A DNA stretch of 64,000 nt, from NCBI GenBank assembly GCA_965230945.1, contig OZ246397.1, positions 304,749 through 368,748 on the forward strand, written 5' to 3'. Position 1 is the first letter of the stretch. The number at the start of each line of letters is the position of its first letter. Position numbers and translations under genes: made by a program. The stretch is from an uncultured Gammaproteobacteria bacterium (GTDB lineage Bacteria > Patescibacteriota > Microgenomatia > PFEM01 > JAPLYW01). Below the pieces are notes generated by a model that searched no databases, had not been told where the DNA came from, and worked only from the letters and a program-made list of their open reading frames with translations. Positions 17,099-48,064 of the stretch are shown here, in pieces.

Positions 17099-17656
17099 AT
17101 GGCTGTCCAAACAAAAGCTCCTAAAACAAAAATCGAGTTTATTCCTCAAGAAGATTGGGAAAGAACAAGTTTCGGTAAATTCCTAAAATGGCTCTTAAAT
17201 ATTGGTCGCTGGATTATCATCGTTACTGAACTGATAGTCATTATTGCTTTCATCTCCAGATTCAAATTAGACCGAGATTTAACCAATCTTAACGAAGAAA
17301 TCAAGCAGAAGCAGGCCATTGTCGCCTCATCCTCTGACTTTGAAGAAGAGTTTCTCTTCTTGCAAAAAAGACTTTCTACCATTGAAGGCTTAAGAAAAAC
17401 TCAAATTGAAGCCAATAAAGTAATCGATATCTTTGCCCAATTAACACCCGTTGGTGTTAAGATTTCCAATCTCACTCTAGCTGCCAAAGAAATCAATCTT
17501 ATCGCCACAGCTAACTCAGAATTTACCTTTGCTACCTTCTTAAAAAATCTTAAAAATTCTTCACAAATCAAAGATGTCTCTATCTCCAATGTCAATATCA
17601 GTGAGGAATTCGGCTTAGGAATTAGTTTTAATGTTAAAGCAAAAATTAAAACCTAA
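17099..17656 (+). CDS. pilN: PilN-like type IV pilus assembly protein
   Basis: Short cytoplasmic N-terminus, a single TM, then a periplasmic coiled-coil region. 185 aa. Adjacent to a PilO-like gene. Confidence 0.55.
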   Translation: MAVQTKAPKTKIEFIPQEDWERTSFGKFLKWLLNIGRWIIIVTELIVIIAFISRFKLDRDLTNLNEEIKQKQAIVASSSDFEEEFLFLQKRLSTIEGLRKTQIEANKVIDIFAQLTPVGVKISNLTLAAKEINLIATANSEFTFATFLKNLKNSSQIKDVSISNVNISEEFGLGISFNVKAKIKT

Positions 17657-17661
17657 AAACT

Positions 17662-18282
17662 ATGGTTGATCTTAATCGACAGATTGATTCCCATCGCTAT
17701 CATCGTTACTTCGTTGATCTGGGCAATTTTTATAAAACCAAAAAGTCCAAAGTTTATACTGGTATTATCATTTCCCTTTTAACGATTATCTTTTTCATCA
17801 TCTTTGCGATTAAACCAACCTTAGTAACCATCGCCCAATTAATCAGGCAGGTCAAAGATCAAAAAACGGTTGTCACCGCCTTGGAGAAAAAAACTAATAA
17901 CTTATCTCAAGCCCAGACCAACTATCTTAATATTGAATCCAGGCTCTTTTTGGTAGATGAGGCTTTGCCCACAACTGCCGAAATTAATTCTTTAGTCAAA
18001 CAATTTGAAATCCTTAGTAGAAAATCCGGCATCAGCATTGAAAGCTTCCGCATCAATGAAGCTACTTTGAATACCTCTAAATCAAAAAAGAGCCAAAAAC
18101 AACCAGTCAGCTTTAACCTAACTATCTCTGGTAATTACGAAAGTTTAAAAACCTTCATTGATTCCTTAAATGATTTAAGAAGGATTATCACTGTTGAAAG
18201 TTTTGTCTTTCAAGTAGGGCGGGGTGAGGATGACATTTTAGCCTTAAATATCAATGGCCAAGCTTGGTTTTTAGCAAAATAA
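17662..18282 (+). CDS. pilO: PilO-like type IV pilus assembly protein
   Basis: N-terminal TM, coiled-coil, and a C-terminal alpha/beta region. 206 aa. Confidence 0.55.
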   Translation: MVDLNRQIDSHRYHRYFVDLGNFYKTKKSKVYTGIIISLLTIIFFIIFAIKPTLVTIAQLIRQVKDQKTVVTALEKKTNNLSQAQTNYLNIESRLFLVDEALPTTAEINSLVKQFEILSRKSGISIESFRINEATLNTSKSKKSQKQPVSFNLTISGNYESLKTFIDSLNDLRRIITVESFVFQVGRGEDDILALNINGQAWFLAK

Positions 18283-18283
18283 T

Positions 18284-18655
18284 ATGAATCAACAAAAATT
18301 TCAACTAGGAAAAAAAGCTTTGTTTTTAACAATTCTTAGTTTTATTACTGTCTTTACCTGGGTTGGCTTTGAAGTCTATCAGGCTAGTAGTAAAACTACC
18401 ATTACCAAAGTAACCAAAAAACAAATGGCTCCCATTAATCCCAATATTAAGACCAAGATCATTGAAAGAATTGATGAGAGCCTTTCCTTTTCTCAAGAAG
18501 AAATGGACATTATTCCTGTCAGCGAAGCAACAGCTACTCCTACAGTAGAATTAAGCGAAGAGCCAACAGAAACAACTCCCTCAGCAGAAGCAACTGAAGA
18601 AGAAAGCGCAACTGGTAGTAGTCAAGCAACAGAAGAAAATGATACTCTAGAATAA
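18284..18655 (+). CDS. small membrane-anchored protein with an acidic T/E/S-rich C-terminal tail
   Basis: N-terminal TM 'ALFLTILSFITVFTWVGF', then a low-complexity acidic tail. Confidence 0.5.
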   Translation: MNQQKFQLGKKALFLTILSFITVFTWVGFEVYQASSKTTITKVTKKQMAPINPNIKTKIIERIDESLSFSQEEMDIIPVSEATATPTVELSEEPTETTPSAEATEEESATGSSQATEENDTLE

Positions 18656-18691: not shown

Positions 18692-20065
18692 ATGAAAAAA
18701 ATTCGTCGTCTACCAACAATTGTCGGCATTATTCTCGTTTTGGGAGCTATTGTTAGCGGTGTTTTTTTAATTAAGCAAGGTCCCAGTCTTTTTCTAAGGG
18801 CCGCTCCGGAGATTACCCCTGCCCAAATAAAAATCACTAATGTCAACGGTAGTAGTTTTGCAGTTTCTTGGATTACTGATGAAAAAACCACCGGCTTTGT
18901 AAAATATGGTCTGGAGCAAAAAGTTTCTTTTACTGCAACTGATGATCGCGACCAACTTTCTGGAAAAACAGAAAGTTTTTTAACCCACCATGTAACAGTC
19001 AAAAATCTAAAACCTAACACCAGCTACTTCTTTAAAATTGGCTCTGGTGGCAAAATTTTTGATAACAATGGCCAGGCTTATCAGATAAAAACTGCTCCGG
19101 CCTTTTCAGGTTCCCCGCCTCCTAATGATGTCGCTTACGGTACTGTAGTGGATCAAAACAGCAATCCAGTTGAGGGGGCTATCGTTTATCTTTCCTTAGC
19201 CAATGCCAATCCTACTTCCACCCTCAGTAAATCTTCAGGAAGTTGGGTAATCCCTTTAAATTTAATCCGCTCGGCTGATCTTTCCTCTTATGCCAACTAT
19301 GATAAAGAGGCTTCAATTGAAGAAATTTTTATTCAGGCTGGCTCCTTAGGAACGGCTGCGGTAGTAGCCACCACTAAAAATGACAGTCCCATGCCTAAGA
19401 TTATTCTGGGGCAAAACTTTGACTTTAGACAAATCGCTGAGGAAAAATCAACGACACCAGAAAAAGAACAAGAATCTAGCCAAGAAGCAACGGCTACCAG
19501 TAAATTTAGCCTCAATGAAACAACTACGCCATCAGCCTCTACCATCTCAGCTAAACTCGATATCATCAATCCCGAAGAAAATGAAGAGCTCAACTCTCAA
19601 AAACCACAAATTTTGGGAACTGGACCAGTGAATAAAACCCTTACCATTACCATACAATCTCCAGCCACTTATTCAGGCACAGTTAAAGTAGACAATCAAG
19701 GTAATTGGAGCTGGATCCCGCCTGAAAACCTAGAACCAGGTGAACATACCGTTACTGCCAGCTATACTGATGAAAATGGCCAAGAACAAAAAATTTCCAA
19801 AACCTTCATCGTTCTGGCTTCAGGAACCAGCTCCCTGCCGGCGATGACTGCTTCTCCCTCAGCAGAGACATCGCCTTCTGCCGAAGCTTCTCCTTCACCA
19901 ACACCAACCATAGCTACTGATAGCAGTCGCACTTCTATGCCTTCAACCAGTGAGGGCGTACCAACTTCTGGTTACTTGACACCAACCTTTACGGTCTTCA
20001 TAATAGGAATCAGTTTAATTTTCATGGCATTATTTCTAAGAAAACTTAATGGACGATCTGCCTAA
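18692..20065 (+). CDS. cell-surface protein with an N-terminal signal anchor, an FN3/purple-acid-phosphatase-N-like domain, an S/T/P-rich stalk, and a C-terminal 'VPTSGYLTPTF'+TM+'RKLNGRSA' anchor
   Basis: 'SFAVSWITDEKTTGFVKYG...HHVTVKNLKPNTSYFFKIG' is FN3-like. The C-terminus has an LPXTG-like VPTSG motif followed by a hydrophobic helix and a basic tail. Confidence 0.7.
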   Translation: MKKIRRLPTIVGIILVLGAIVSGVFLIKQGPSLFLRAAPEITPAQIKITNVNGSSFAVSWITDEKTTGFVKYGLEQKVSFTATDDRDQLSGKTESFLTHHVTVKNLKPNTSYFFKIGSGGKIFDNNGQAYQIKTAPAFSGSPPPNDVAYGTVVDQNSNPVEGAIVYLSLANANPTSTLSKSSGSWVIPLNLIRSADLSSYANYDKEASIEEIFIQAGSLGTAAVVATTKNDSPMPKIILGQNFDFRQIAEEKSTTPEKEQESSQEATATSKFSLNETTTPSASTISAKLDIINPEENEELNSQKPQILGTGPVNKTLTITIQSPATYSGTVKVDNQGNWSWIPPENLEPGEHTVTASYTDENGQEQKISKTFIVLASGTSSLPAMTASPSAETSPSAEASPSPTPTIATDSSRTSMPSTSEGVPTSGYLTPTFTVFIIGISLIFMALFLRKLNGRSA

Positions 20066-20744
20066 AACTGACCATGATCAAGATCAAAATACAAAAGAAA
20101 AACCTATTGAGATTGGCTCTTTCGATCAAAAATCTCCCCTTTCTCAAACTCAAAGCAGTTCAATAGAACCGCCAAAAGCAATGCCACCTCTCCCAGAAAC
20201 CGATGAAAAACCATCTGAAGTAAAAATAATAGGAGAACCAGAAGTAAAACAGACGGCACCAGAAGTAACCAATATTACTACCTCACCTCCTGAAAATAAG
20301 AACAAAAAACTTAAAAATATTTCCGCCATTATAGGCTTGCTTATCATTATCATTGCCCTACCTTTAAGTCTTTTGTTAGTTAAACAAAGGCAAGAAATTA
20401 GGAAAAAGGCTGAAGCTCCTGGCCTAAGTGGAAGCATTTCTTTTTGCGGTATTACCATTAGTCCAACTGGACAGTCTTTTAGTAATGGCACTTATACTTT
20501 CACTTATTCAATTACCGGAAGTGGTCATACTGTAAAAGTTCATACTTATGGTTGTGCTTGTGTAGAGGGAGCAAGAGGAAGTTGCGGTACTAATTCTGGA
20601 AAATGTAAAGGTAATAGCTTCACTACCCAAACCCCTTATAGCGGAAGCATTACCGCCCCTAAAATTGGAGATGATTGTGGAACTTATCAAGCTGATGTCT
20701 ATGTCGTCTCTGTAGATGGGAATACAGCCTGTCACAATAACTAA
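20049..20744 (+). CDS. Cys-rich secreted/anchored protein. It has a TM followed by 'VKQRQEIRKKAEA', paralogous to the N-terminus of the next gene. The start is uncertain.
   Basis: TM 'ISAIIGLLIIIIALPLSLLLV' plus the shared post-TM motif. About 8 Cys in the C-terminal 100 aa. Confidence 0.6.
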   Translation: MDDLPKTDHDQDQNTKEKPIEIGSFDQKSPLSQTQSSSIEPPKAMPPLPETDEKPSEVKIIGEPEVKQTAPEVTNITTSPPENKNKKLKNISAIIGLLIIIIALPLSLLLVKQRQEIRKKAEAPGLSGSISFCGITISPTGQSFSNGTYTFTYSITGSGHTVKVHTYGCACVEGARGSCGTNSGKCKGNSFTTQTPYSGSITAPKIGDDCGTYQADVYVVSVDGNTACHNN

Positions 20745-21871
20745 TGAATAAACTTAAATTTAGCAAGTCAACTATTTTTACCCTTTTAGGCATCCTTGTT
20801 ATTGTTGCTTCTATTCCAATGGCAGTAATCTTGGTCAACCAAAGGCAAGAAATTAGAAAAGAAGCGGCTCAATCATGCGGAAGCTGGTGTGCCTCTAAAG
20901 TTGGCCATGCAGATTATCCGTGGTGTATTTGTAATGCGGACAGAAGCCCAAAGTCTGGCTATACAGAAGCTGGTAGAACGACAACCTCAGACTGTACCCG
21001 TTCTTGTGTGGCCTATCGAGAGAAAAGTTCTCCACCACCATCTCAGCCAACAGCTACACCAACACCAAAGTCAAGCGGTCCATCTTGCGGCAGTTGGTGT
21101 GCTTCAAGGGTCGGTCATGCAGATTATCCGTGGTGTATTTGTAATGCGGACAGAAGCCCAAAGTCTGGCTATACAGAAGCTGGTAGAACGACAACCTCAG
21201 ACTGTACCCGTTCTTGTGTTGCTTATAAACAATCTACATCTGCTCCTACTCCAACCCCCTCTGGCCAAAACTGTGGTGGTTGGTGTGCTTCAAAAGTCGG
21301 TCATGCAGATTATCCTTGGTGTATTTGTAATGCCGATAGAAGTCCTGCCTCAGGCTATACAGAAGCTGGTAGAACGACAACCTCAGACTGTACCCGTTCT
21401 TGTGTGGCCTATTCTTCTACCCAAGATGCCGCCGGTGCCGCAGGACATCCAGTTTGGGGACTCTATCAAACCGGTAAAACCTGCTCTGTTACTTCTACAC
21501 CTACCCCGACACCTACTAGAGGAACTACACCTACCCCGACACCTACTAGAGGAACTACACCTACCCCGACACCTACTGGGACCGTTACTCCTACTCCTAC
21601 ACTAACGATCACACCAACCCCAACTCCAACTAGTACAGTAACTCCTACCCCCACAGCCACTGTGACCCCAACTGGTACGATCACACCAACCCCAACTGGT
21701 ACGATCACACCAACCCCAACTGGTACGATCACACCAACCCCTACCCCAACCACAATAGCTGCAGCTACTCCAAGCGCAGAACTACCTGAGGCTGGCTTTA
21801 CCCTTCCTACTTTTGGAGCTATCATCGGTGGTATTCTATTAATAATCACTTCACTGATCTTCATTCTCTAA
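20744..21871 (+). CDS. surface protein with three tandem 6-Cys modules, a PT-repeat linker, and a C-terminal 'LPEAGFTLPTF'+TM anchor
   Basis: Signal anchor, then 'VNQRQEIRKEAAQ', then the module 'CGSWCAS[KR]VGHADYPWCICNADRSP.SGYTEAGRTTTSDCTRSCVAY' three times, then (TPTP)n, then LPEAG and a hydrophobic tail. Confidence 0.8.
   Translation: MNKLKFSKSTIFTLLGILVIVASIPMAVILVNQRQEIRKEAAQSCGSWCASKVGHADYPWCICNADRSPKSGYTEAGRTTTSDCTRSCVAYREKSSPPPSQPTATPTPKSSGPSCGSWCASRVGHADYPWCICNADRSPKSGYTEAGRTTTSDCTRSCVAYKQSTSAPTPTPSGQNCGGWCASKVGHADYPWCICNADRSPASGYTEAGRTTTSDCTRSCVAYSSTQDAAGAAGHPVWGLYQTGKTCSVTSTPTPTPTRGTTPTPTPTRGTTPTPTPTGTVTPTPTLTITPTPTPTSTVTPTPTATVTPTGTITPTPTGTITPTPTGTITPTPTPTTIAAATPSAELPEAGFTLPTFGAIIGGILLIITSLIFIL
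20873..21412 (+). repeat. Tandem intragenic DNA repeats. Three units of about 210, 186 and 144 bp. Units 1 and 2 share about 105 bp of perfect identity, and the last 60 bp of all three units are identical.
   Basis: Aligned by eye. Further 30-bp x3 (21497-21586) and 24-bp x3 (21671-21742) repeats encode the PT linker. Confidence 0.85.
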
Positions 21872-21892: not shown

Positions 21893-23134
21893 ATGAAAGT
21901 CGCTATTATTGGTGGTGGACCTACTGGCTTAATTATTGGTTTGAGAGTTAGTCAAAAAGGGCATCAGATAACCGTTTTTGAAAAAGGAAAAAAGATCGGC
22001 GGTTTAAGTAAAACTTTTAAAAGAAAAGACTGGCAATGGCCAGTTGAACAATTTTATCATCATCTTTTTTCTTCTGATAAAACCGCTAAAAAAGTTATCT
22101 CTCAGTTAGGATTAAAAGATAAACTCTTTTATTCACAACCCAAAACTTCTATTTTCAAAAATCATCAATTTCTAAGGCTTGATTCTCCCTTATCTGTTTT
22201 GAAATTTCCCTACTTCTCTTTCTTAGAAAAGGTAAGATTTGGTCTAGTTACTCTTTATCTTAAATTGAGTAATAATTTTCTCACTTTTGAAAAAATCCCG
22301 GCTGTTAAGTGGTTAAAAAAAGCTTATGGGAAAAAAGTCTATCAATTTTTATGGGAACCTCTTTTAAAATCAAAATTTCCTTTCAAAACTAGCCAAATAT
22401 CCCTCTCTTGGTTTTGGGCTAGAATTAAAGTAAGAGGCTCAAACCTTGGCTATCTTAAAGGAGGCTTTCAGGTTTTAACCGATAAGTTAGAAAAAAAGAT
22501 AAAAGAAAATGGTGGCCAAATACTAACCAATCACGAAATCAAAAGCTTTAAAAATTTAAAAAACTTTGACAAAATTATTTTCACCACTCCCATTTCTATA
22601 TTTTTAAAAATAGCCAAAAACAAACTCCCTAAAAGCTACCAAGAGCAGCTCAAAAAACTAAAAATGCTAGGTGCTCTTAGTCTAATTCTCGTCTCAAAAG
22701 AAAAATTTCTGAAAGATGGCACCTATTGGCTAAATATCAATGAAAAAAATTATCCTTTCGTTGCCGTAGTTGAACATACCAACTTTATCCCCTCAAAACA
22801 CTACAATAAAAATAAAATTCTTTATATTGGCGGTTATTATCCTCAAAATCATCCCTTTTTTAAAATGAACAAAGAGCAAATCTTAAAAGAATTCTTACCT
22901 TACCTTAAAAAAATCAATCCCCAATTTAATCTAAAAGCAATAATCGATTCTTACTTTTTCACTGATCTCAATACACAACCCTTAAGAATAGTTAACTATC
23001 TTCAATTAATGCCTTCTTCTAAAACACCCATTAAAAACACCTTTTTGGCCAACATGCAGTTAGTCTATCCTTATGATCGAGGCACTAACTATGCTTTTCA
23101 ATTAGGAATTAAAATTGCCAATGAAGTGGAATAA
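21893..23134 (+). CDS. FAD-dependent oxidoreductase (amine-oxidase / UDP-galactopyranose-mutase-like Rossmann type)
   Basis: N-terminal 'KVAIIGGGPTGLIIGL...VFEKGKKIGGL' dinucleotide-binding motif. 413 aa. Confidence 0.75.
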   Translation: MKVAIIGGGPTGLIIGLRVSQKGHQITVFEKGKKIGGLSKTFKRKDWQWPVEQFYHHLFSSDKTAKKVISQLGLKDKLFYSQPKTSIFKNHQFLRLDSPLSVLKFPYFSFLEKVRFGLVTLYLKLSNNFLTFEKIPAVKWLKKAYGKKVYQFLWEPLLKSKFPFKTSQISLSWFWARIKVRGSNLGYLKGGFQVLTDKLEKKIKENGGQILTNHEIKSFKNLKNFDKIIFTTPISIFLKIAKNKLPKSYQEQLKKLKMLGALSLILVSKEKFLKDGTYWLNINEKNYPFVAVVEHTNFIPSKHYNKNKILYIGGYYPQNHPFFKMNKEQILKEFLPYLKKINPQFNLKAIIDSYFFTDLNTQPLRIVNYLQLMPSSKTPIKNTFLANMQLVYPYDRGTNYAFQLGIKIANEVE

Positions 23135-24758
23135 AAAAATAATTTTCATCTTTTCTTTATTGGGTATTATCCTTTTAGGGGGGTTTTTACGCTTCTACAA
23201 TCTCAATTGGGATCAAGGTCACTTCTTTCATCCTGATGAAAGAAACATTGCTAACGCTGTTTCCAAAATTAGATTTTTTCATCAATTAAATCCTCAGTTC
23301 TTTGCCTACGGCAGCTTACCTATCTATCTCTATAGAGTTACAGGAGATATTTTAGTCGCTTTGACTAAAAACCAAGATTGGGTCTTAGAATGGCCCAATA
23401 TTAACATTATCGGCAGAAGCTTTTCGGCCCTTTTTTCTAGCCTATCTTTAATTTTGGTCTTCTTTTTAACTAAAAAAATATTTAATAAAAAAGTGGCTAT
23501 TTTGGCTACTTTTTTTACTGCCTTTTGTCCTTCCCTTATCCAAACGGCTCACTTCAGTGTAACCGAAAGTCTACTTGTCTTCTGGTTGCTTTTAATAAGC
23601 CTTCTTTCTTTAAAGATTGCCGATAAGGCAAGCTATAAAAATTATCTGGTGACAGGTTTTATTTGGGGACTAGCTTTAGCCACTAAGATCTCCGCCCTTT
23701 CCTTTGCTATCATTCCCTTAACCGCTCATCTTCTTTTCCATTTTAGAAAAATAAAAAACTATTTAAAACTTCTTGTCGGTTTTACCGTTGCTTTTCTAAC
23801 CTTTGCCTTTTTATCACCTTATACCTTCCTAGCCAAAGAAAAATTTTTGGAATCAATGAGATACGAAAGTGGTATTGTTTGGGGAACACTAAAAGTAGTT
23901 TATGTCCTACAGTTTGAAAAAACCTTACCCTATCTTTTTCAAATCAAAAACTTGCTTTGGCAAATGGGACCAACAGCTTTCTTGGGAATCCTGGGTCTTC
24001 TTGTCCTTTTAGTAATCGCCTTTAAAAAGAAAGAGAAAAAGATTTTTATTCTTCTTTCTTTTCCTATCGCTTACTTTCTCTATGCCGGGCTTTGGTACAC
24101 TAAATTCATCCGCTATATGATTCCCTTACTTCCTTTTTTAGCCATTGGTCTTGCCTGGCTAATTTACAAGATTCGTTTAAAAACTAAAATCTTTGGCAAT
24201 TTTTTAATCATTTTATGTCTCCTTACCAACCTTCTTTGGGCCTTAGCTTTTTTTTCTATCTATAGTAAAGAACAAACAAGAATAACGGCTTCAAAATGGG
24301 TTTACCAAAATATTAAAAAAGGGGATTACATTCTTAACGAACATTGGGATGACGGGCTACCCTTAAATCTTGACTCAAATCATCCCTCTAATTACAAAAT
24401 TGAACAATTAACCATCTATGAAGCCGACAATCAACAAAAACTTAACTACTATGCTGAAAAACTAGACCAAGCTAACTATCTCATCATTAACAGTCGCCGC
24501 CTCTACGGCACTTTAATGTTTTTACCAGAAAAATATCCATTAACCTCTAAATATTACCAACTGCTTTTTGAAAACAAACTAGGCTATAATAAAGTAGCTG
24601 AATTTACCTCCTATCCATCAATTTTAGGAATCGTAATTAATGATGATAAAAGTGAAGAAAGCTTCCAGGTTTATGATCACCCAAAAGTTATGATTTTTGA
24701 AAACAAAAAGATTTTTAACCAAAAGCAGTTTGAAGAGATTTTAAACATTTATGATTAA
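23115..24758 (+). CDS. GT-C fold membrane glycosyltransferase (ArnT/PMT-like, GT39/GT83 family)
   Basis: Polytopic. An 'HPDER' acidic motif sits in the first extracytoplasmic loop ('FFHPDERNIANAV'). Confidence 0.75.
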   Translation: MPMKWNKKIIFIFSLLGIILLGGFLRFYNLNWDQGHFFHPDERNIANAVSKIRFFHQLNPQFFAYGSLPIYLYRVTGDILVALTKNQDWVLEWPNINIIGRSFSALFSSLSLILVFFLTKKIFNKKVAILATFFTAFCPSLIQTAHFSVTESLLVFWLLLISLLSLKIADKASYKNYLVTGFIWGLALATKISALSFAIIPLTAHLLFHFRKIKNYLKLLVGFTVAFLTFAFLSPYTFLAKEKFLESMRYESGIVWGTLKVVYVLQFEKTLPYLFQIKNLLWQMGPTAFLGILGLLVLLVIAFKKKEKKIFILLSFPIAYFLYAGLWYTKFIRYMIPLLPFLAIGLAWLIYKIRLKTKIFGNFLIILCLLTNLLWALAFFSIYSKEQTRITASKWVYQNIKKGDYILNEHWDDGLPLNLDSNHPSNYKIEQLTIYEADNQQKLNYYAEKLDQANYLIINSRRLYGTLMFLPEKYPLTSKYYQLLFENKLGYNKVAEFTSYPSILGIVINDDKSEESFQVYDHPKVMIFENKKIFNQKQFEEILNIYD

Positions 24759-26778
24759 CGATCTTACCTACATTTTTAGTTGGTGGTTTTTATTTTTTGC
24801 TCTTGGTATTCTCTTTTTACCTTTAAATTACTTCTTCTTTAAAAAATTCTTTGACCATGGCTATATCTTCAGTAAAATATTAGCCCTCTTACTTATTAGC
24901 TACACTAGTTGGCTTTTAGCTAGCTTAAAAATCCTTCCTTTTAGCCAAATAAGCATTTTGGGGATCATTATTCTTTGGGGACTGATTAACCTTTTTATCA
25001 AAAAACTCAGCAAATTAAATATCAAGTCCTTGATTAAAAAGAATTGGAAAATCTTTTTACTTGAAGAGCTTCTTTTCATCTTTTGTCTGCTTGCTTGGTC
25101 TTTTGTCCGCGGTTTCCAGCCTAATATCCATGGTTTGGAAAAACTCATGGACTATGGCTTTGTTAATACCATCCTCCGTTCTAGCTTCTTTCCTCCTTTA
25201 GATATGTGGTTTTCAGGAGAAACCATTAACTATTACTACTTTGGTCATCTCATAACTGCTCTTTTAACTAAAATTACTAAAATTGACTCTGCCATTACCT
25301 ATAACCTCATGATCGCCAGCCTTTTTGCCTTTATCTTTACGGCCGTCTTTTCTTTAGCTGGTAACTTAACTTCTTTTTTTCTAAAAGAAAAAAGAATAAA
25401 GAATAAATTAAAATTTATCTTGTTAGGTGGCTTTTTAGCTGCCTTTTTCCTTAGCTTAGGAGGCAACTTACACCCTTTTTACTGGCTTGTAAAAGAAGGT
25501 ACCTTTGTCGGTTATTGGTACCCCGATGCCACCCGTTTTATTGTGGAAAAATTTGGGGCGGCTGATAATACCATTCATGAATTCCCTCTTTATAGTTTTG
25601 TGGTCGCTGACCTTCACAGCCATCTTTTAAACCTGCCTTTTGTCCTTCTTTTTATCGGCCTCTTAATAAGGCTTTTTTATCTAAAAATTATCAAACTAGC
25701 TGATTCCGTCTTTTACGGCTTTTTGCTGGGAATAATGTATATAACTAATCCCTGGGATCTACCAATTTATTTTCTTCTTTTATCTCTGGTTGTTTTTTAT
25801 CATTATTATCTAAACTTCAACTTAAGTTTTAAAACATTTCTTAAGACTTTCTTATTCTCTCTTAGCGTATTTTTACTAGCCATCATTTTTCCCTTGCCTT
25901 TCCATCTTCAATTTAACCCCATTGCCAATAAAATTGCCTTGGTTGACTTTAATTCTCCCCCATGGATGCTTTTGGTTCTATGGGGCTTACCGCTTTTTAT
26001 AAGCTTAAGCTTTCTACTAATTTTAAAAACAAACAAGATGAAATTAAGTAAAACTGATTCTTTTATCTTAACTTTACTTGGCGTCAGTTGGTTTCTAATT
26101 ATTGTTCCCGAGATTATTTACCTTAAAGATATCTACATTCATTCTTATCAACGAGCCAATACCATGTTTAAACTTACCTATCAGTCTTTTGTTATGTTCT
26201 CCTTATCAACCGGCTTCATTTTCTTAAGAATTTTCCTTCTTAAAAGCAAAAAGATAAAAATACTGCTTCTTCTTTTAAGCCTACCCTTTATCTTTTCTGT
26301 CTCTGTCTATCCTTACTTTGCTATCAAGTCTTTTTATGGTTTCCAAAATTACAAAGGTCTTTATGGTTTAAACCAGCTTAAGAATTTTTATCCAGACGAC
26401 TATCAAGGAATTCTATGGCTAAGAGAAAATATTAAAGGCCAACCAGTAATTGTCGAAGCTGTGGGTGAAAGTTACACTGACTTTGCCAGGGTTTCAGCTA
26501 ATACAGGTCTGCCTACCATCTTAGGCTGGCGAGTTCATGAATGGCTTTGGCGAGGTTCCTTTGACGAACCTGGCAAGAGAACTGAAGAAGTCAAAGAAAT
26601 TTATGAAAATAATGACATTGAGAAAACCCAAAAGCTTCTAGAAAAACATCAGGTTAGTCTAATTTTTATAGGCAGTTTAGAAAGAAAACAATATCTTAAT
26701 CTAAAAGAGGAAAAGTTCAGCAAACTAGGGAAGTCTATTTTCTCTTCTGGACAAACCAAGATTTACAAGATTGACTAA
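24751..26778 (+). CDS. large polytopic membrane protein, putative GT-C-type glycosyltransferase/polymerase
   Basis: 675 aa with more than 12 predicted TMs. Conserved 'HEFPLYSFVVADLHSHLLNLPF' loop. Confidence 0.6.
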   Translation: MINDLTYIFSWWFLFFALGILFLPLNYFFFKKFFDHGYIFSKILALLLISYTSWLLASLKILPFSQISILGIIILWGLINLFIKKLSKLNIKSLIKKNWKIFLLEELLFIFCLLAWSFVRGFQPNIHGLEKLMDYGFVNTILRSSFFPPLDMWFSGETINYYYFGHLITALLTKITKIDSAITYNLMIASLFAFIFTAVFSLAGNLTSFFLKEKRIKNKLKFILLGGFLAAFFLSLGGNLHPFYWLVKEGTFVGYWYPDATRFIVEKFGAADNTIHEFPLYSFVVADLHSHLLNLPFVLLFIGLLIRLFYLKIIKLADSVFYGFLLGIMYITNPWDLPIYFLLLSLVVFYHYYLNFNLSFKTFLKTFLFSLSVFLLAIIFPLPFHLQFNPIANKIALVDFNSPPWMLLVLWGLPLFISLSFLLILKTNKMKLSKTDSFILTLLGVSWFLIIVPEIIYLKDIYIHSYQRANTMFKLTYQSFVMFSLSTGFIFLRIFLLKSKKIKILLLLLSLPFIFSVSVYPYFAIKSFYGFQNYKGLYGLNQLKNFYPDDYQGILWLRENIKGQPVIVEAVGESYTDFARVSANTGLPTILGWRVHEWLWRGSFDEPGKRTEEVKEIYENNDIEKTQKLLEKHQVSLIFIGSLERKQYLNLKEEKFSKLGKSIFSSGQTKIYKID

Positions 26779-37977: not shown

Positions 37978-38768
37978 TGTTAATTGATACCCACGCTCAC
38001 CTAGATTTCTCTCAATTTGATAATGACAGAGAGAAGATTATAAAAGAAACTAAAAGCTTAGGTATAAAAGTCATCAATGTTGGTTCTCATAGACAAGCTT
38101 GTCTAGATTCGGTCAATCTCGCTGAAAAACACAAAAATATCTATGCGGCTGTTGGCATTCATCCTCACGATACCGAAGATGTCAAAGATATAAATAAACT
38201 GATTGATTTCTTAGAAAAACTTAGCAGAGAACCTAAAGTGATCGCCATTGGTGAATGCGGCTTAGATTATCATCCTTTTGATCAAGGAAAATTTAGAAAA
38301 GATTTAAATTTAGATATTAAAAACAAACAAAAAGAAGTCTTTAAGGCTCAATTTGAATTAGCTCAGAAACTTAAACTTCCAATCATTATTCACAACCGCG
38401 ATTCTCACCAAGATCTTTTAAAGATTATTAAAGATTTCAAAGGTAGGGGTGTTATCCATTGCTTTTCTGGTGACAAAATCTTTTTAAAAAAGGTTTTAAA
38501 TCTAGGTTTTTATATTGGTTTTGACGGCAATATCACTTTTAAAAACGCCAAAAACCTACAAGAAATAGTTAAACTTACTCCTCTAGAAAAAATTTTAATA
38601 GAAACTGATTGTCCATTTTTAGCACCCGAACCTTTCCGTGGTTTGAGAAACGAACCTAAAAATGTTAAAATAGTGGCTGAATTTATTGGGGAATTAAAGC
38701 AGATCTCTTTCAGTAAGGTTGCCCAAACAACAACCCAAAATGCTAAAAATCTTTTTAAAATCAAATAA
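37977..38768 (+). CDS. tatD: TatD-family metal-dependent DNase/hydrolase
   Basis: 'LIDTHAHLDF', 'IGECGLDY', 'IHNRD'. 263 aa. Confidence 0.9.
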   Translation: MLIDTHAHLDFSQFDNDREKIIKETKSLGIKVINVGSHRQACLDSVNLAEKHKNIYAAVGIHPHDTEDVKDINKLIDFLEKLSREPKVIAIGECGLDYHPFDQGKFRKDLNLDIKNKQKEVFKAQFELAQKLKLPIIIHNRDSHQDLLKIIKDFKGRGVIHCFSGDKIFLKKVLNLGFYIGFDGNITFKNAKNLQEIVKLTPLEKILIETDCPFLAPEPFRGLRNEPKNVKIVAEFIGELKQISFSKVAQTTTQNAKNLFKIK

Positions 38769-40276
38769 TGAAGAAAGCTGAACAAATAAACTACAGAAAA
38801 CAAAGACTTTTGGAAATGCTGCCAGGAAGCATCACCTGGCTGGTCATTCTTTTCCCTATTTGGGGCGCTTTTTTCATTCCTCGAATTGTCGCTTACTTCA
38901 CCATTGCCTTTTTGGTCTTTTGGCTTTATCGTTCTTTCCAAAGCGGTATCTTAGGTATTAGAGGTTATATTAAAATTCGCCGCAGTGAACAAACTGACTG
39001 GAAAGAAAAGTATTTAAAAGAAAAAGATAAAAATTCTTTAAGCTGGAATCAAATAAAACATGTTGTCATCATTCCCAATCTCAATGAAACAATAGAAGTC
39101 ATCTCTAAAACCTTAAAAAACTTAAGTCAACAAAAAGATATTAATAAAAACCAGCTCATCGTTGTTTTAGCCATGGAAGGAAGAGCGGCTGATTCAGACC
39201 AGAGAGCCAAAGAATTACTGCAAAAGTTTAAAGATAAATTTGGCAAACTGGAAGCCATCATCCACCCAGATGGAATTATAGGTGAAGTTAAAGGCAAGGC
39301 TTCTAATGAAGCTTGGGCCGCCAAAAAAATCAAAAAGATAGTTGTTAATCAAGAAGGTTATGATATTAATAAAATCACCATCACCAGCTGTGATGCTGAT
39401 GCTCATATTCACCTTAAGTACTTCTCAACTCTGACTTATCAATTCGCCATCAATAAAAACCGTTACCTGCGTTTTTGGCAATCACCCATCTGTTGGCACA
39501 ATAATTTTTGGAAAGTTCCTGCCTTTGTCAGAATCATCGGTACTTTAAGCAATGTTGGCTATCTAGCCAACATTCAAGAACCAGACGGGTTGTTTTTTAA
39601 CTACTCAACCTACTCAACTTCACTAAAACTTCTCGACGAGGTTGGCTATTGGGATACTGATATTATTCCTGAAGATTGGCATATCTTTTTACAGTCCTTT
39701 TTCCATAAAAAAGGCCTTGTTGAAGTTGAACCTATTTTCTTACCCACAAGTATTGATGCTCCAGAGGGTAAAACTCATTTTGCCGCCTTAAAAAACCGCT
39801 ATGAACAATGCAAGCGACACGCTTGGGGAGCAACAGACATCCCTTACGCCATCAACAAAGCCATGCGACACAAAGAAATTCCTTTTTTAATTAGATTTTT
39901 TCGTGTCTACAAGGTTATTGAAAGCCACATCCTCTGGGCCACCAACTGGTTTTTATTAACCTTAGGTGCCTGGGTACCAGCTTTAATCAACCCCTTCTTT
40001 AAGCAAACTGCTCTTGGTTACAACCTACCTAAAGTAGCCCAGTGGGTCTTAAATATCTGTCTCCTGTTTTTGATTATCATGATTGTCGTCGATCGAGCCA
40101 TGCGTCCCAAGCCACCCAAGAAAGAAGTTCGTCGCGGATTTGGCTTTTTGGAAATTATCCAATGGCTTTTAATGCCTATTGCCGCTCTATTTATGGCTGT
40201 CCTCCCTGCTATTGATTCTCAAACCAGATTAATGCTTGGTAAAAGATTAGAATACCACGTCACTAAAAAGATCTAA
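38768..40276 (+). CDS. membrane-embedded GT2-family glycosyltransferase
   Basis: N-terminal TMs, a GT-A core 'VVIIPNLNETIEV...ITSCDADAH', then a C-terminal TM bundle. Confidence 0.7.
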   Translation: MKKAEQINYRKQRLLEMLPGSITWLVILFPIWGAFFIPRIVAYFTIAFLVFWLYRSFQSGILGIRGYIKIRRSEQTDWKEKYLKEKDKNSLSWNQIKHVVIIPNLNETIEVISKTLKNLSQQKDINKNQLIVVLAMEGRAADSDQRAKELLQKFKDKFGKLEAIIHPDGIIGEVKGKASNEAWAAKKIKKIVVNQEGYDINKITITSCDADAHIHLKYFSTLTYQFAINKNRYLRFWQSPICWHNNFWKVPAFVRIIGTLSNVGYLANIQEPDGLFFNYSTYSTSLKLLDEVGYWDTDIIPEDWHIFLQSFFHKKGLVEVEPIFLPTSIDAPEGKTHFAALKNRYEQCKRHAWGATDIPYAINKAMRHKEIPFLIRFFRVYKVIESHILWATNWFLLTLGAWVPALINPFFKQTALGYNLPKVAQWVLNICLLFLIIMIVVDRAMRPKPPKKEVRRGFGFLEIIQWLLMPIAALFMAVLPAIDSQTRLMLGKRLEYHVTKKI

Positions 40277-40340
40277 GTTACATTTCTTAATTCTTTTTGA
40301 GGGGTTCTTAATTTGCTATACTATTTGCTATACTTGAAAT

Positions 40341-41627
40341 ATGAATCAGTTTACCACCAGCCTCTGGGGGGACGAGGCTTGGGCTGCTACTTTAGCCGTT
40401 AAACCCATTTCCCAAATTATAAAAATTGTTGCCACGGATACTTCTCCGCCTTTTTACTACCTTCTCCTTCATGGATGGATGAAAATCTTTGGGTCTTCAG
40501 AGATAGCCATAAGGAGTCTTTCCTTTTTGTTCTTTCTTGGCACAGTACTGACTGTCTATCTCATTGCCCGATATCTCTGGGGGAGAAAAACTGGTATTTT
40601 AGCTGCCCTTTTGGCCTTTACTAATCCTTTTCTCTTTACTTACGCTTTTGAGGGAAGAATGTATTCACTTTTAGTCCTAACCTCTACCTTATCCATCTAC
40701 TTTTTCTTAAAGAAAAATCGGCTTGGATTTATTTTAGCAACCGCCGCTGCCTTGTATACCCATCATTTCTCTCTCTTCATCGTTATTTTTGAGGGGCTCT
40801 GGGTAATTAAAGAAAATCGGGGAAAGAATTTTAAACAAATTATAAAAAACCTTTCAGATTTTTTTATTATTGGTCTTTTATATCTCCCCTGGTTTTATCC
40901 CCTTTACTACCAAACATCACTAGTTGGCAGTGGTTTTTGGTTGGGCAAGCCGACTTTTGAGGTATTCAAAGACACCATTCACAACTTTTTAGTAGGTTCC
41001 GGGAAAGAGATTTCTCGTCAATTAGCCTACTGGATAATATTTGCCGTCTTACTTTTACGAAAGTGGACTAAGGAAAAAGAAAAATGGGTCTTCCTTTTAG
41101 GCTGGTTTTTTACTCCCCTAATTTTAACTTTTATCATTTCTCGATTTTTTCAACCAATCTTTTACGACCGCTATATGTTAATGGCTATTCCAGCAGCTTC
41201 AGTTTTAATCGCCTCCAATAGAAGAAAACTTTCTTTTATCTTTATCTTTATGGTTATCTTTTTTTTAGCAACAGTTAATCACGCTTACTTTTTCCATCCC
41301 GTCAAAAGGCCGTTTAGGGAACTCGCGGTCTTCATTAAAAAAGAGGCAAGAGAAATACCACTTGTTAACTATAACGCTGCTGCTCATCATCTTTGGGAAT
41401 CAAAATATTATGACCTTCAGGCACCAATCTATTCCCCCCAACCACTTCCTTTCTATACGGGAACAGCCTTAATGGAGGAAGGCGATATAATTAAAAAAAT
41501 ACCGGATGTAAAAGAAATCGGAGTGATAACCAGCGCCCCAATTGAAGAAACAAACATCCCTGGCTATCATCTGATGAAAGCCCAAAAATTTGGCCAGCTC
41601 TCATTTATGTGGATGGGAAAAGATTAA
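40341..41627 (+). CDS. GT-C fold glycosyltransferase (GT39/ArnT-like)
   Basis: 'SLWGDEAWAATLA...SPPFYYLLLHGWMKIFG' N-terminal loop. Polytopic. Confidence 0.7.
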   Translation: MNQFTTSLWGDEAWAATLAVKPISQIIKIVATDTSPPFYYLLLHGWMKIFGSSEIAIRSLSFLFFLGTVLTVYLIARYLWGRKTGILAALLAFTNPFLFTYAFEGRMYSLLVLTSTLSIYFFLKKNRLGFILATAAALYTHHFSLFIVIFEGLWVIKENRGKNFKQIIKNLSDFFIIGLLYLPWFYPLYYQTSLVGSGFWLGKPTFEVFKDTIHNFLVGSGKEISRQLAYWIIFAVLLLRKWTKEKEKWVFLLGWFFTPLILTFIISRFFQPIFYDRYMLMAIPAASVLIASNRRKLSFIFIFMVIFFLATVNHAYFFHPVKRPFRELAVFIKKEAREIPLVNYNAAAHHLWESKYYDLQAPIYSPQPLPFYTGTALMEEGDIIKKIPDVKEIGVITSAPIEETNIPGYHLMKAQKFGQLSFMWMGKD

Positions 41628-43116: not shown

Positions 43117-43128
43117 TAGAATAGTTAC

Positions 43129-43500
43129 GTGCGCGCCCCAATTATCAAAACATTAAGATTAATCCCCTCAACGGAAAACAAGAGCTTAAGAAAGTTTCTA
43201 AAACTGGCTTTTATCATTATCCTCGCTGAAATCTTAATCATCCTTTTTTCTTTATCCTTCCTGCCGCCTCAAGTCCCTCTTTTTTATTCCCGTCCTTGGG
43301 GTGGAGAACAACTGGTTCATCCTTTGTATCTTTTCATCATTCCTTTGGCAAACCTCCTCGTTCTTATCCTCAATTCAGTCTTAATTTCCTTTATCCCTAA
43401 AAAAGATAGTCTCATTAGGCAAATCCTGACCATCGGCGTTTTGATTTTCAATTCTTTATCATTAATTACCTTAATACAAATTATTAGATTGGTTATTTGA
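43129..43500 (+). CDS. small membrane protein, hypothetical
   Basis: 123 aa, hydrophobic. 4-bp overlap with the next gene. Confidence 0.4.
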   Translation: MRAPIIKTLRLIPSTENKSLRKFLKLAFIIILAEILIILFSLSFLPPQVPLFYSRPWGGEQLVHPLYLFIIPLANLLVLILNSVLISFIPKKDSLIRQILTIGVLIFNSLSLITLIQIIRLVI

Positions 43501-46931: not shown

Positions 46932-47873
<942 letters not shown>

Positions 47874-47900
47874 GAAAATGGTAGAATAAACCTACACTAG

Positions 47901-47972
47901 GTGCGGTGGCGAAGTGGAAACGCTGTGGTCTGCAAAACCTCGATGCGCGGGTTCGATTCCCGCCCGCACCTC
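47901..47972 (+). tRNA. tRNA-Cys(GCA)
   Basis: Acceptor GGTGCGG/CCGCACC, T-arm GCGGG-TTCGATT-CCCGC, anticodon loop CTGCAAA. Manual fold, D-arm slightly irregular. CCA is not encoded. Confidence 0.8.
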
Positions 47973-48016
47973 AAAAACTTGACTTTCTAGGTTATTTTTG
48001 GTATCATACAACACAG

Positions 48017-48042
48017 TCCTCCTCTATTAGGAGGATTTTTTT
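48017..48042 (+). terminator. Rho-independent terminator after tRNA-Cys: TCCTCCT-ctatt-AGGAGGA followed by TTTTTTT
   Basis: Perfect 7-bp stem plus a T-run, seen directly. Confidence 0.65.
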
Positions 48043-48064
48043 ATGGGGTTAATTAGCCCCTATT

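What the first reader, a model, noticed from the sequence alone, without database searches (positions are those of the whole stretch)
20873..21412. Unrecognised 6-Cys module triplicated in tandem, with near-identical DNA between copies
The 375-aa protein carries three tandem copies of a roughly 48-aa module, C-x3-C-x12-C-x1-C-x22-C-x3-C (CGSWCAS[KR]VGHADYPWCICNADRSPxSGYTEAGRTTTSDCTRSCVAY). I cannot assign it to a known cysteine-rich fold.

Copies 1 and 2 share about 105 bp of perfect DNA identity. The last 60 bp of all three copies are identical, encoding GYTEAGRTTTSDCTRSCVAY. So duplication or gene conversion is recent, or the sequence is under strong constraint.

The module is followed by (TPTP)n linkers that are themselves built from 30-bp x3 and 24-bp x3 DNA repeats. 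Together these give a recombination-prone, possibly phase- or length-variable surface protein. The exposed tandem Cys modules may bind a ligand or host surface.
Basis: seen in the sequence. Interest (0 to 1): 0.7.

Follow-up and report, generated by a model that had tools for sequence, protein, structure and literature searches.

The report
Size-variable surface protein with new cysteine module
This is a real gene for a cell-surface protein of a small-genome, uncultivated bacterium whose exposed end carries three tandem copies of a previously undescribed three-disulfide mini-domain, and related strains carry one to at least four copies or entirely different cysteine-rich heads at the same position.

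Summary
ORF 20744-21871 (+, 375 aa) carries three in-frame copies of a 49-aa, 6-Cys module (C-x3-C-x11-C-x-C-x20-C-x3-C), followed by perfect 30-bp and 24-bp repeats that encode a Thr/Pro stalk.

The module matches nothing in Pfam, NCBIfam, PDB sequences or PDB folds. Only about 15-20 protein clusters among billions contain it. AlphaFold2 gives a confident helix plus three-strand model (pLDDT 89).

Differences between copies are almost all synonymous and strongly clustered, which indicates purifying selection plus gene conversion.

Near-identical strains (flanks at least 99.75% identical) carry 1 versus at least 4 modules. More distant relatives keep the N-terminal anchor, stalk and C-terminal LPxAG-like anchor but swap the head for unrelated Cys-rich domains.

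The gene always lies in a conserved cluster: pilN, pilO, three envelope proteins, then an oxidase and a PMT-type glycosyltransferase. One type IV pilin elsewhere carries the same module.

Best reading: a stalked surface protein of variable valency, probably for binding or adhesion, and linked to type IV pili. Length variation is shown; phase variation is not supported; the ligand is unknown. I class it as a new domain in a known kind of protein, of moderate interest.

The parts
20744..21871 (+). Whole gene: 375-aa stalked surface protein with 19 Cys (18 in the modules plus 1 lone Cys)
   Evidence: ORF list. The exact protein is also found on a 615-kb NCBI contig and on a JGI metagenome contig that is 100% identical over 2927 bp. 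Homologues sit at the same syntenic position.
20744..20869 (+). N-terminal hydrophobic anchor plus the conserved juxtamembrane motif LVNQRQEIRKEA (aa 1-42)
   Evidence: This segment is 69-93% identical across loci whose neighbouring genes are only 54-79% identical. The same motif occurs in the upstream 231-aa protein, there behind a roughly 90-aa N-terminal region that I take to be cytoplasmic. Whether it is cleaved is unknown.
20870..21016 (+). 6-Cys module, copy 1 (aa 43-91)
   Evidence: The AF2 model of this sequence has pLDDT 89, with a helix at 3-11 and strands at 19-21, 35-37 and 46-48.
21017..21079 (+). Linker 1 (21 aa, Ser/Pro/Thr-rich, unique sequence)
   Evidence: It differs from linker 2 in both length and sequence, so the copies can be told apart in assembly.
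21080..21226 (+). 6-Cys module, copy 2 (aa 113-161)
   Evidence: 93% DNA identity to copy 1 over the 138-bp Cys-to-Ala core (92% over the 148-nt repeat), with 9 synonymous and 1 non-synonymous difference. All differences lie outside a 104-bp perfect tract.
21227..21265 (+). Linker 2 (13 aa)
21266..21412 (+). 6-Cys module, copy 3 (aa 175-223). This is the copy closest to the modules of the nearest relatives.
   Evidence: 88% identical to copies 1 and 2, and 86-87% identical to the modules of L004 and L017. Its last 60 bp are identical to copy 1.
21446..21484 (+). Conserved segment HPVWGLYQTGKTC, which carries the single unpaired Cys
   Evidence: It is present in every protein at this position whatever the head type, and it is duplicated in L024/L025. 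All family members have an odd Cys count. Its function is unexplained.
21485..21778 (+). Thr/Pro-rich stalk (98 aa, 72% Thr+Pro), containing perfect 30-bp (21495-21577) and 24-bp (21665-21741) tandem repeats
   Evidence: Repeat number differs among homologues L011-L016.
21782..21868 (+). C-terminal sorting-like signal: LPEAGFTLPTF followed by a hydrophobic segment, with no basic tail
   Evidence: The motif [LV]P.[AS]G[FY]..PTF plus a transmembrane segment is shared with the 457-aa neighbour. There is a weak sub-threshold match to a sortase-dependent protein family (E 0.039). The segment is 58-91% conserved across loci.
20049..20744 (+). Upstream partner gene (231 aa). Its stop codon overlaps the target's start codon (TAATG). 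It has the same anchor motif and 7 Cys that are invariant among five orthologues, in an Ig-like beta-sandwich ectodomain.
18692..20065 (+). 457-aa surface protein with no Cys: fn3-like, CarboxypepD_reg and Big_13 domains, a Ser/Thr/Pro region, then VPTSGYLTPTF plus a transmembrane segment and a basic tail
17099..18655 (+). pilN (17099-17656), pilO (17662-18282) and a 123-aa bitopic acidic protein (18284-18655) at the head of the same-strand gene cluster
   Evidence: Pfam PilN 4.8e-9 and PilO 9.2e-17. Sequences. The same gene order occurs in 7 loci from related populations: L001-L004, L022, L024 and L026.
21893..26778 (+). Conserved downstream genes: flavin amine-oxidase-like protein (21893-23134), PMT-family glycosyltransferase (23115-24758) and DUF2298 membrane protein (24751-26778)
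   Evidence: with synteny. A role in glycosylating the stalk is an inference only.

Best explanation
The gene encodes a stalked cell-envelope protein of a small-genome bacterium, probably from the Candidate Phyla Radiation (Patescibacteria).

Shown:
- Domain order. The protein has a conserved N-terminal hydrophobic anchor with the LV(N/K)QRQEIRKEA motif. Next come three tandem copies of a roughly 49-aa, six-cysteine mini-domain that belongs to no described family. Then follow a short conserved segment with one extra Cys, a 98-aa Thr/Pro stalk built from perfect in-frame DNA repeats, and a C-terminal LPEAG-like motif plus hydrophobic segment.
- Selection. The module is under strong purifying selection at the protein level.
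- Homogenisation. The copies show mosaic identity tracts, which fits gene conversion or unequal crossing-over.
- Variation. Module number (1 to at least 4) and stalk length differ between strains with near-identical flanks. More distant relatives have unrelated Cys-rich heads between the same conserved ends.
- Context. The gene always lies directly downstream of pilN-pilO and two other envelope proteins. A type IV pilin in another organism carries one copy of the module.

Inferred:
- The six cysteines form three disulfides that stabilise an extracellular helix/beta mini-fold.
- The stalk, possibly O-glycosylated by the adjacent PMT-type enzyme, holds the heads away from the membrane or wall.
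- The heads bind a ligand on another cell or surface. Tandem copies would raise avidity, and recombination would change valency and reach. The module is aromatic-rich and near-neutral in charge, so a glycan or cell-wall ligand is the most plausible target.
- The protein works alongside the type IV pilus in attachment.
For: Architecture and repeats.

No known family.

Rarity:
- 12 clusters among 5.8 billion.
- 8 representatives among 1.84 billion with a module profile.
- No other GTDB representative genome.
- 15 metagenome loci.
- None in viral contigs.

Fold: AF2 pLDDT 89. In 8-Cys variants the two extra cysteines fall on strands 2 and 3, which are adjacent in the model. That is what a cross-strand disulfide would need.

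Selection and conversion:
- pN/pS is 0.03-0.12 between copies and 0.23 pooled.
- Differences are clustered.
- Identity within one protein (88-93%) exceeds identity between proteins (65-87%).

Copy-number polymorphism:
- L004 has 1 module. It is 99.75% identical to L008 over 2850 bp and 99.9% identical to L017 over 4204 bp. L008 and L017 together carry at least 4 modules.
- L007, P0002 and L009 carry 1, 2 and 3 modules.

Head swapping with conserved ends.

Synteny with pilN/pilO.

Pilin carrying the module: P0014/L005 has a G|FTMIE prepilin signal and a Pfam N_methyl hit at 27.4 bits against a 21.2-bit cutoff.

Precedents in CPR bacteria: Cys-rich extracellular proteins that vary between strains (PMC4736985); a Pro/Thr repeat surface protein (PMC6851277); type IV pili and a minor pilin with an extra domain that mediate host binding (PMC12206443).
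Against: - No binding data exist, and no known binding fold was matched.
- The N-terminal segment has no obvious signal-peptidase site (my reading; no predictor was available). If it stays uncleaved, the heads sit next to the membrane rather than at the tip of the stalk.
- The C-terminal signal has Ala where sortase substrates have Thr, and it lacks the basic tail. No sortase gene lies in the 64-kb window.
- No disulfide-forming enzyme was seen in the window.
- Disulfide connectivity could not be read because model coordinates are not returned.
- The taxonomic assignment to the CPR is an inference from the 615-kb contig, 37% GC and gene content.
- The copy number in this particular genome rests on assembly only.
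Confidence: 0.55

Rival explanations
1. The protein is a structural or accessory part of the type IV pilus or envelope machinery, for example a wall-spanning tether or alignment partner of PilN/PilO, rather than an adhesin. The Cys modules would then act as rigid spacers or pilus-contacting elements.
For: - The position downstream of pilN-pilO is invariant in all related loci.
- No + strand terminator-like site lies between 18682 and 23981.
- The anchor motif and C-terminal segment are more conserved than neighbouring genes, as expected for parts that contact a machine.
- The heads start only 4 residues after the anchor motif.
- A pilin carries the module.
Against: - A core machine part would not be expected to swap its main domain for unrelated folds, or to vary from 1 to at least 4 copies within a population.
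- No pilM, pilB, pilC or pilin gene is adjacent in the window.
Confidence: 0.2
2. The protein is a polyprotein precursor or display scaffold for bioactive disulfide-rich peptides, such as defensin-, bacteriocin- or protease-inhibitor-like units, that are released or act on a host cell envelope.
For: - Near-identical modules in tandem, separated by linkers, resemble multi-copy peptide precursors and tandem inhibitor domains.
- Homologues carry at the same position a module with a beta-defensin-like Cys pattern, C-x6-C-x6-C-x12-C-x7-CC.
- In the model, CxxxC lies in the helix and CxC in a strand, as in cysteine-stabilised alpha/beta peptides.
Against: - The linkers share no processing site and differ in length and sequence.
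- Single-module orthologues keep the full stalk and anchor.
- The module is near-neutral in charge (5 K/R, 4 D/E), unlike cationic antimicrobial defensins.
- No peptidase or exporter gene is adjacent.
- Known bacterial defensins are free peptides from other phyla with a different Cys order (PMC11561630).
Confidence: 0.08
3. The Cys (and His) residues bind metal, for example zinc, copper or iron-sulfur. The modules would then act as extracellular metal-binding or redox units.
For: There are six Cys, invariant in the typical modules, plus a nearly invariant His in 49 residues. CxxxC and CxC are also common metal-binding spacings (general knowledge). Many CPR bacteria live without oxygen.
Against: - The predicted location is outside the membrane.
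- AF2 gives a compact fold without metal.
- Extra cysteines appear in pairs at positions that are adjacent in the model.
- The His is replaced or shifted in divergent members P0011, P0014 and L026.
- The C5-C6 spacing varies from 2 to 7 residues.
Confidence: 0.05
4. The triplication is an assembly artefact, such as a collapsed or expanded repeat, or the ORF is not a real gene.
For: Several metagenome contigs break inside the module array (L006, L008, L017, L018), so these repeats do trouble assemblers. The second assembly that carries the identical gene (L021) may come from the same data.
Against: - The three copies differ at 10-17 positions over the 138-bp core (12-21 over the 148-nt repeat) and have unique linkers of 63 and 39 bp.
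- The longest perfect repeat is 104 bp.
- Independent samples give 2-, 3- and at-least-4-module genes.
- pN/pS is well below 1.
Confidence: 0.02

Closest known systems
Gram-positive wall-anchored repeat proteins with variable repeat number (e.g. group B streptococcal alpha C/Rib, S. aureus SasG and Sdr proteins); from general knowledge
   Same: The layout is the same: N-terminal export segment, repeated folded domains, a Pro/Thr- or Ser/Asp-rich wall-spanning region, then a C-terminal LPXTG-type motif plus hydrophobic segment. Repeat number also changes by recombination between near-identical DNA repeats.
   Different: - The repeat is a 49-aa disulfide-rich mini-domain rather than an Ig-like domain.
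- The sorting motif is LPEAG without a basic tail.
- The N-terminal anchor is unusually conserved and may not be cleaved.
- The host is probably a CPR bacterium, and the gene is linked to pilN-pilO.
Fungal cell-wall adhesins (Als, Flo, Epa); from general knowledge
   Same: Both have a ligand-binding head, a Ser/Thr-rich O-glycosylated stalk made of intragenic tandem repeats, and a C-terminal anchor. Repeat number varies between strains and alters function.
   Different: There is no homology and the organism is a bacterium. Glycosylation of the stalk is only inferred from the neighbouring PMT-family gene.
Cysteine-stabilised alpha/beta (cis-defensin) peptides, including the bacterial defensins of PMC11561630
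   Same: Both are small three-disulfide-sized domains. In the AF2 model CxxxC lies in a helix and CxC in a beta-strand.
   Different: - The Cys order is CxxxC...CxC...CxxxC, not C...CxxxC...C...CxC.
- The CxC strand follows the helix directly.
- The module is near-neutral in charge.
- It is embedded in tandem in an anchored protein rather than being a free secreted peptide.
Cys-rich, strain-variable extracellular proteins of CPR bacteria (Peregrinibacteria, PMC4736985) and the hypervariable PTD-repeat surface protein of a Gracilibacterium (PMC6851277)
   Same: These are also CPR envelope proteins. They are cysteine-rich or carry Pro/Thr repeats, vary between strains, and were proposed to mediate attachment.
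   Different: The Peregrinibacteria proteins are large (about 1,655 aa on average) and show only weak similarity to other Cys-rich repeat proteins. Neither paper describes this module, the copy-number polymorphism, the head swapping or the pilN-pilO linkage.
Minor type IV pilins with added domains that mediate host binding (e.g. PilX2 of Nanosynbacter lyticus TM7x, PMC12206443)
   Same: One relative of the module sits inside a bona fide type IV pilin (P0014), and the target gene is linked to pilN-pilO. In CPR bacteria such pilus-borne extra domains are the candidate adhesins.
   Different: The window protein itself has no prepilin signal, so it is not a pilin.

Membership tests
Any curated protein domain family (Pfam-A 2025, NCBIfam 20.0) | Match to a family model at or near its curated threshold | tested here: not met
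   The whole protein gave only sub-threshold noise (Ntox47, 15.9 bits against a cutoff of 25). There were no NCBIfam hits. All 16 module instances gave 0 Pfam hits at E<=10.
Cysteine-stabilised alpha/beta (cis-defensin) fold | CxxxC in an alpha-helix and CxC in a beta-strand | tested here: met
   In the AF2 model (pLDDT 89), helix 3-11 holds C3 and C7 and strand 19-21 holds C19 and C21. This rests on a model only.
Cysteine-stabilised alpha/beta (cis-defensin) fold | Canonical framework C1...C2xxxC3...C4...C5xC6, with the CxC on the last strand (PMC5234102) | tested here: not met
   The sequence has CxxxC, then CxC, then CxxxC. There is no Cys before the helix pair and none between the helix pair and the CxC.
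Cysteine-stabilised alpha/beta (cis-defensin) fold | Structural similarity to solved members | tested here: not met
Cysteine-stabilised alpha/beta (cis-defensin) fold | Disulfides Ci-Cj and Ci+4-Cj+2 link the helix to the strand | not testable with these tools
   Model coordinates are not returned, and there is no experimental connectivity.
Sortase (LPXTG) substrates | LPXTG pentapeptide near the C-terminus | tested here: inconclusive
   The motif is LPEAG here (Ala for Thr), and LPTAG, LPQAG or LPKAG in homologues. There is a weak match to a sortase-dependent family (E 0.039, 14.5 bits against a cutoff of 47).
Sortase (LPXTG) substrates | Hydrophobic segment followed by a positively charged tail | tested here: not met
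   The hydrophobic segment is present, but the protein ends ...SLIFIL with no basic residues. The 457-aa neighbour does have an RKLNGRSA tail.
Sortase (LPXTG) substrates | A sortase encoded in the genome | tested here: inconclusive
   No sortase domain was found among the window ORFs scanned, which are most of those of at least 120 aa. The rest of the genome is not available.
Type IV pilins | Class III signal (G | F/M-T-L-I-E plus hydrophobic helix) and a Pfam N_methyl match | tested here: not met
   No such motif occurs in the window protein or anywhere in the window. The feature is met for the module-bearing relative P0014/L005.
Contingency (phase-variable) loci | Repeat tract whose unit length is not a multiple of 3, or a promoter repeat, that can switch expression on and off | tested here: not met
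   The repeat units are 210/186 bp (module plus linker), 30 bp and 24 bp, all in frame. The variants observed are in-frame length variants.

The most novel reading that the evidence does not exclude
The locus is a cassette-like display system tied to the type IV pilus apparatus of a CPR lineage. A constant chassis would consist of the unusually conserved membrane anchor motif, a lone-Cys segment that may form a covalent bond to the 7-Cys Ig-like partner encoded just upstream, a glycosylated stalk and a new C-terminal sorting signal. This chassis would present interchangeable disulfide-rich heads: this new module in 1 to at least 4 copies, a beta-defensin-like module, and others. These heads would determine which host cell the episymbiont recognises or attacks. 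Head exchange and copy-number change would then drive shifts in host range.
Probability: 0.15. Interest if true: 0.75.

Novelty: new variant of a known kind. Interest (0 to 1): 0.5.

Why it matters
How ultrasmall CPR bacteria recognise and hold on to their hosts is largely unknown, and type IV pili are so far the main experimentally supported factor. This locus offers a concrete candidate next to pilN-pilO. Its exposed part is the most variable feature of an otherwise conserved region, both in copy number within a population and in domain identity between species.

It also adds a confidently modelled, very narrowly distributed disulfide-rich mini-domain to the set of bacterial extracellular folds. 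It further points to two conserved terminal signals that may mark a lineage-specific sorting route.

The practical value is modest, because the organism is uncultivated and no ligand is known.

Tried and rejected
- Pfam and NCBIfam on the whole protein, its termini and all module instances: nothing usable.
- PDB sequence profile search: 0 hits at E<=10.
- A homologue search with a broader 49-aa module alignment returned nothing, not even known members, so it is uninformative.
- A scan of GTDB representative genomes found only one stretch and no distinct locus (presumably the source genome itself).
- Viral contigs contain no relative of the module.
- The partner protein's ectodomain was modelled in the hope of a functional lead. 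It is a generic Ig-like beta-sandwich.
- Considered and rejected or down-weighted: Kazal-type or other protease inhibitor, hevein-like or other small carbohydrate-binding module membership (no family match; these remain mechanistic analogies only), the pilin motif of sortase-assembled pili (the Lys in the lone-Cys segment is not conserved), a thioester domain (no CxQ motif), an alternative frame or antisense ORF (20889-21605 +, 21466-21864 -; judged to be by-products of the repeats, because the conserved homologues and pN/pS well below 1 support the 20744-21871 frame), and phase variation.
Full report
**1. The observation**

ORF 20744-21871 on the + strand encodes 375 aa. A repeat search finds three in-register 148-nt copies that are 92% and 86% identical to the first. 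In protein terms the modules are aa 43-91, 113-161 and 175-223, or nt 20870-21016, 21080-21226 and 21266-21412.

Copies 1 and 2 share a perfect 104-bp tract. Copies 1 and 3 share their last 60 bp. Copy 2 has two synonymous changes near its end, so all three share 53 bp and an identical peptide.

Tandem Repeats Finder confirms the stalk repeats: 30 bp x 2.8 and 24 bp x 3.2, both perfect. The clustering of differences is far beyond chance. No random placement out of 200,000 reproduced the 104-bp run, and P is about 1.4e-4 for the 60-bp run.

**2. The gene is real and under selection**

Differences between the window copies are nearly all synonymous: 9 synonymous against 1 non-synonymous for copies 1 and 2, giving pN/pS of 0.03-0.12. 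Pooled over modules from many loci, pN/pS is 0.23.

Modules within this protein are 88-93% identical in DNA. They are only 65-87% identical to modules from other loci. The C-terminal peptide variant EAGR...TRS is shared by all three copies here but not by relatives.

Old synonymous divergence next to perfect tracts is the signature of concerted evolution by gene conversion or unequal crossing-over, acting on a protein sequence that is conserved.

An identical 2927-bp stretch occurs on a JGI metagenome contig, and the protein is recorded on a 615-kb NCBI contig. These may not be independent data.

**3. The module**

The module has no counterpart in Pfam, even at E<=10 for all 16 instances. It also has none in NCBIfam or in PDB sequences.

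It is very rare:
- 12 clusters among 5.8 billion proteins.
- 8 representatives among 1.84 billion in an exhaustive profile search, one of them spurious.
- No other GTDB representative genome.
- 15 metagenome loci.
- No viral contigs.

AlphaFold2 on a 16-sequence module alignment gives a confident model: mean pLDDT 89, with a helix at 3-11 and strands at 19-21, 35-37 and 46-48. C3 and C7 lie in the helix, and C19 and C21 lie in the first strand. That recalls the cysteine-stabilised alpha/beta motif.

One piece of independent support for the model comes from the 8-Cys variants (P0011 and P0013 module 1). Their two extra cysteines fall at positions 35/36 and 47, on strands 2 and 3, which are neighbours in the model. 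That is what a cross-strand disulfide would need.

The module is near-neutral in charge (5 K/R, 4 D/E) and rich in aromatics (5 of 49). The most variable columns cluster at positions 28-38, which cover the long loop and strand 2.

**4. The whole protein**

The domain order is:
- an N-terminal hydrophobic segment plus LVNQRQEIRKEA;
- three heads;
- the conserved segment HPVWGLYQTGKTC, which carries a lone Cys;
- a 98-aa stalk that is 72% Thr+Pro;
- LPEAGFTLPTF plus a hydrophobic end.

The C-terminal motif is shared with the 457-aa neighbour (VPTSGYLTPTF plus a transmembrane segment and a basic tail). It resembles a sortase signal only loosely. No sortase gene is in the window.

**5. Context**

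The gene is the last of six same-strand genes:
- pilN;
- pilO;
- a 123-aa bitopic acidic protein;
- a 457-aa protein with fn3 and Big_13 domains;
- a 231-aa protein whose stop codon overlaps the target's start codon;
- the target.

Downstream come a flavin amine-oxidase-like gene, a PMT-family glycosyltransferase, DUF2298 and an LCP protein. No + strand terminator-like site lies between 18682 and 23981. This order is conserved in seven loci from related populations.

The 231-aa partner has a roughly 90-aa N-terminal region that I take to be cytoplasmic, the same anchor motif, and an ectodomain with 7 Cys that are invariant among five orthologues. That ectodomain models as a generic Ig-like beta-sandwich.

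**6. Variation between strains**

L004 has one module. It is 99.75% identical over 2850 bp to L008 and 99.9% identical over 4204 bp to L017. Those two contigs come from a sister sample, and each breaks inside a module array. Together they carry at least four modules. Likewise L007, P0002 and L009 carry 1, 2 and 3 modules on closely related backgrounds. The number of stalk units also differs among L011-L016. All of these variants are in frame.

At greater distance, the neighbouring genes are 54-79% identical. The N-terminal 42 aa (69-93%) and C-terminal 32 aa (58-91%) of the target are mostly conserved as well as or better than those neighbours, but the head is replaced:
- by a divergent version of the module (L026);
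- by a paralogue of the partner's Ig-like domain (L024/L025);
- by unrelated Cys-rich segments (L022/L023);
- by an added module with a beta-defensin-like Cys pattern (P0008-P0012).

L004 and L026 are 86-91% identical in DNA on both sides but have no detectable similarity across the head.

**7. Link to type IV pili**

Besides the pilN-pilO synteny, the profile search found one copy of the module inside P0014. The upstream in-frame sequence of that protein reads NNFG|FTMIEILVV. It passes the Pfam N_methyl threshold, and it sits next to another pilin-like ORF.

In cultivated CPR bacteria, type IV pili and a minor pilin with an extra domain mediate host binding (PMC12206443).

**8. Interpretation**

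The shown facts fit a stalked surface protein whose exposed, disulfide-stabilised heads vary in number and kind. Such behaviour is typical of proteins that meet a changing outside partner.

I infer a binding or adhesion role, with avidity set by copy number. I also infer possible O-glycosylation of the stalk by the neighbouring PMT-type enzyme.

Four rivals are less well supported, for the reasons given with each: a pilus-machine accessory, a peptide polyprotein, a metal-binding unit, and an assembly artefact.

Three features remain unexplained:
- the very conserved anchor motif;
- the lone-Cys segment;
- the consistently odd Cys count in this protein and in its partner.

CPR precedents exist for Cys-rich, strain-variable extracellular proteins and for Pro/Thr repeat surface proteins (PMC4736985, PMC6851277). 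The kind of protein is therefore known. The domain, the copy-number polymorphism, the head swapping and the pilN-pilO linkage are new details.

Noticed in passing
L003 5502-6464 (P0010); also P0008, P0009, P0011, P0012: Homologues at the same position carry an extra head module with a beta-defensin-like cysteine pattern, C-x6-C-x6-C-x12-C-x7-CC (for example CAKIGGTCRYLSQGCGENNDGFFKPGYCSGPTNRQCC). P0011 has two copies. Pfam gives no hit at E<=0.1. Its structure was not modelled.
   Followed up: partly
L022 8687-9655, L023 2139-3107, L024 8735-9532, L025 1158-1931, L026 4404-5273: The head is swapped at a fixed syntenic position. The N-terminal anchor, lone-Cys segment, Thr/Pro stalk and C-terminal signal are kept. 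The head itself is an unrelated Cys-rich sequence, a paralogue of the upstream 7-Cys Ig-like domain, or a divergent 6-Cys module with a C5-C6 spacing of 7.
   Followed up: yes
window 21446-21484 and 20049-20744: Every protein at this position has an odd number of Cys, because of one Cys in the conserved P-x-W-G-[LR]-[YW]-x-T-x-x-C segment. The translationally coupled upstream partner has 7 Cys that are invariant among five orthologues. An intermolecular disulfide between the two is possible but untested.
   Followed up: partly
window 20744-20869 and 20379-20414: The hydrophobic anchor plus LV(N/K)QRQEIRK(E/K)A motif is shared by two adjacent genes. Across related species it is mostly conserved as well as or better than PilO or the oxidase, which is unusual for a signal peptide. 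It may be a lineage-specific sorting or interaction element.
   Followed up: partly
window 19958-20062 and 21782-21868: The 457-aa protein and the target share the C-terminal motif [LV]P-x-[AS]-G-[FY]-x-x-P-T-F followed by a hydrophobic segment. It is not matched by any NCBIfam sorting-signal model above threshold.
   Followed up: partly
L005 676-1395 (P0014) and L005 296-679: Two adjacent type IV pilin-like genes lie on a 1.7-kb metagenome contig. The second has one copy of the 6-Cys module inserted in its globular part. Its annotated start is too far downstream and misses the G|FTMIE prepilin signal.
   Followed up: yes
L006, L008, L017, L018 (contig ends): Several metagenome contigs end inside the module array. 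Multi-module alleles are therefore probably under-represented in assemblies and in protein databases.
   Followed up: partly
P0002, P0005, L009 and L023 (within the stalk): A third Cys-rich module (for example GCNQDCNTDSNCSNDLICSSDHCRNEDCPEEEDCNC) is embedded in the middle of the Thr/Pro stalk of some homologues. No family was assigned.
   Followed up: no
window 19976-20004: The best sigma-70-like match in the region (11 of 12) lies inside the end of the 457-aa gene, just upstream of the 231-aa gene. It could be an internal promoter for the 231-aa gene and the target. This is a consensus match only.
   Followed up: no
window 38768-45445, 46932-48619, 54797-56671 and 60988-63498: The window is dense in envelope genes:
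- a second PMT_2 glycosyltransferase (40341-41627), flanked by two large ORFs with no family (38768-40276, 41590-43116);
- Glycos_transf_4 (43497-44567);
- UbiA (44504-45445);
- a PEGA plus SH3_3 protein (46932-47873);
- an M23 peptidase (48065-48619);
- a VanW-like protein (54797-56671);
- DUF4012 (60988-63498).

   Followed up: no
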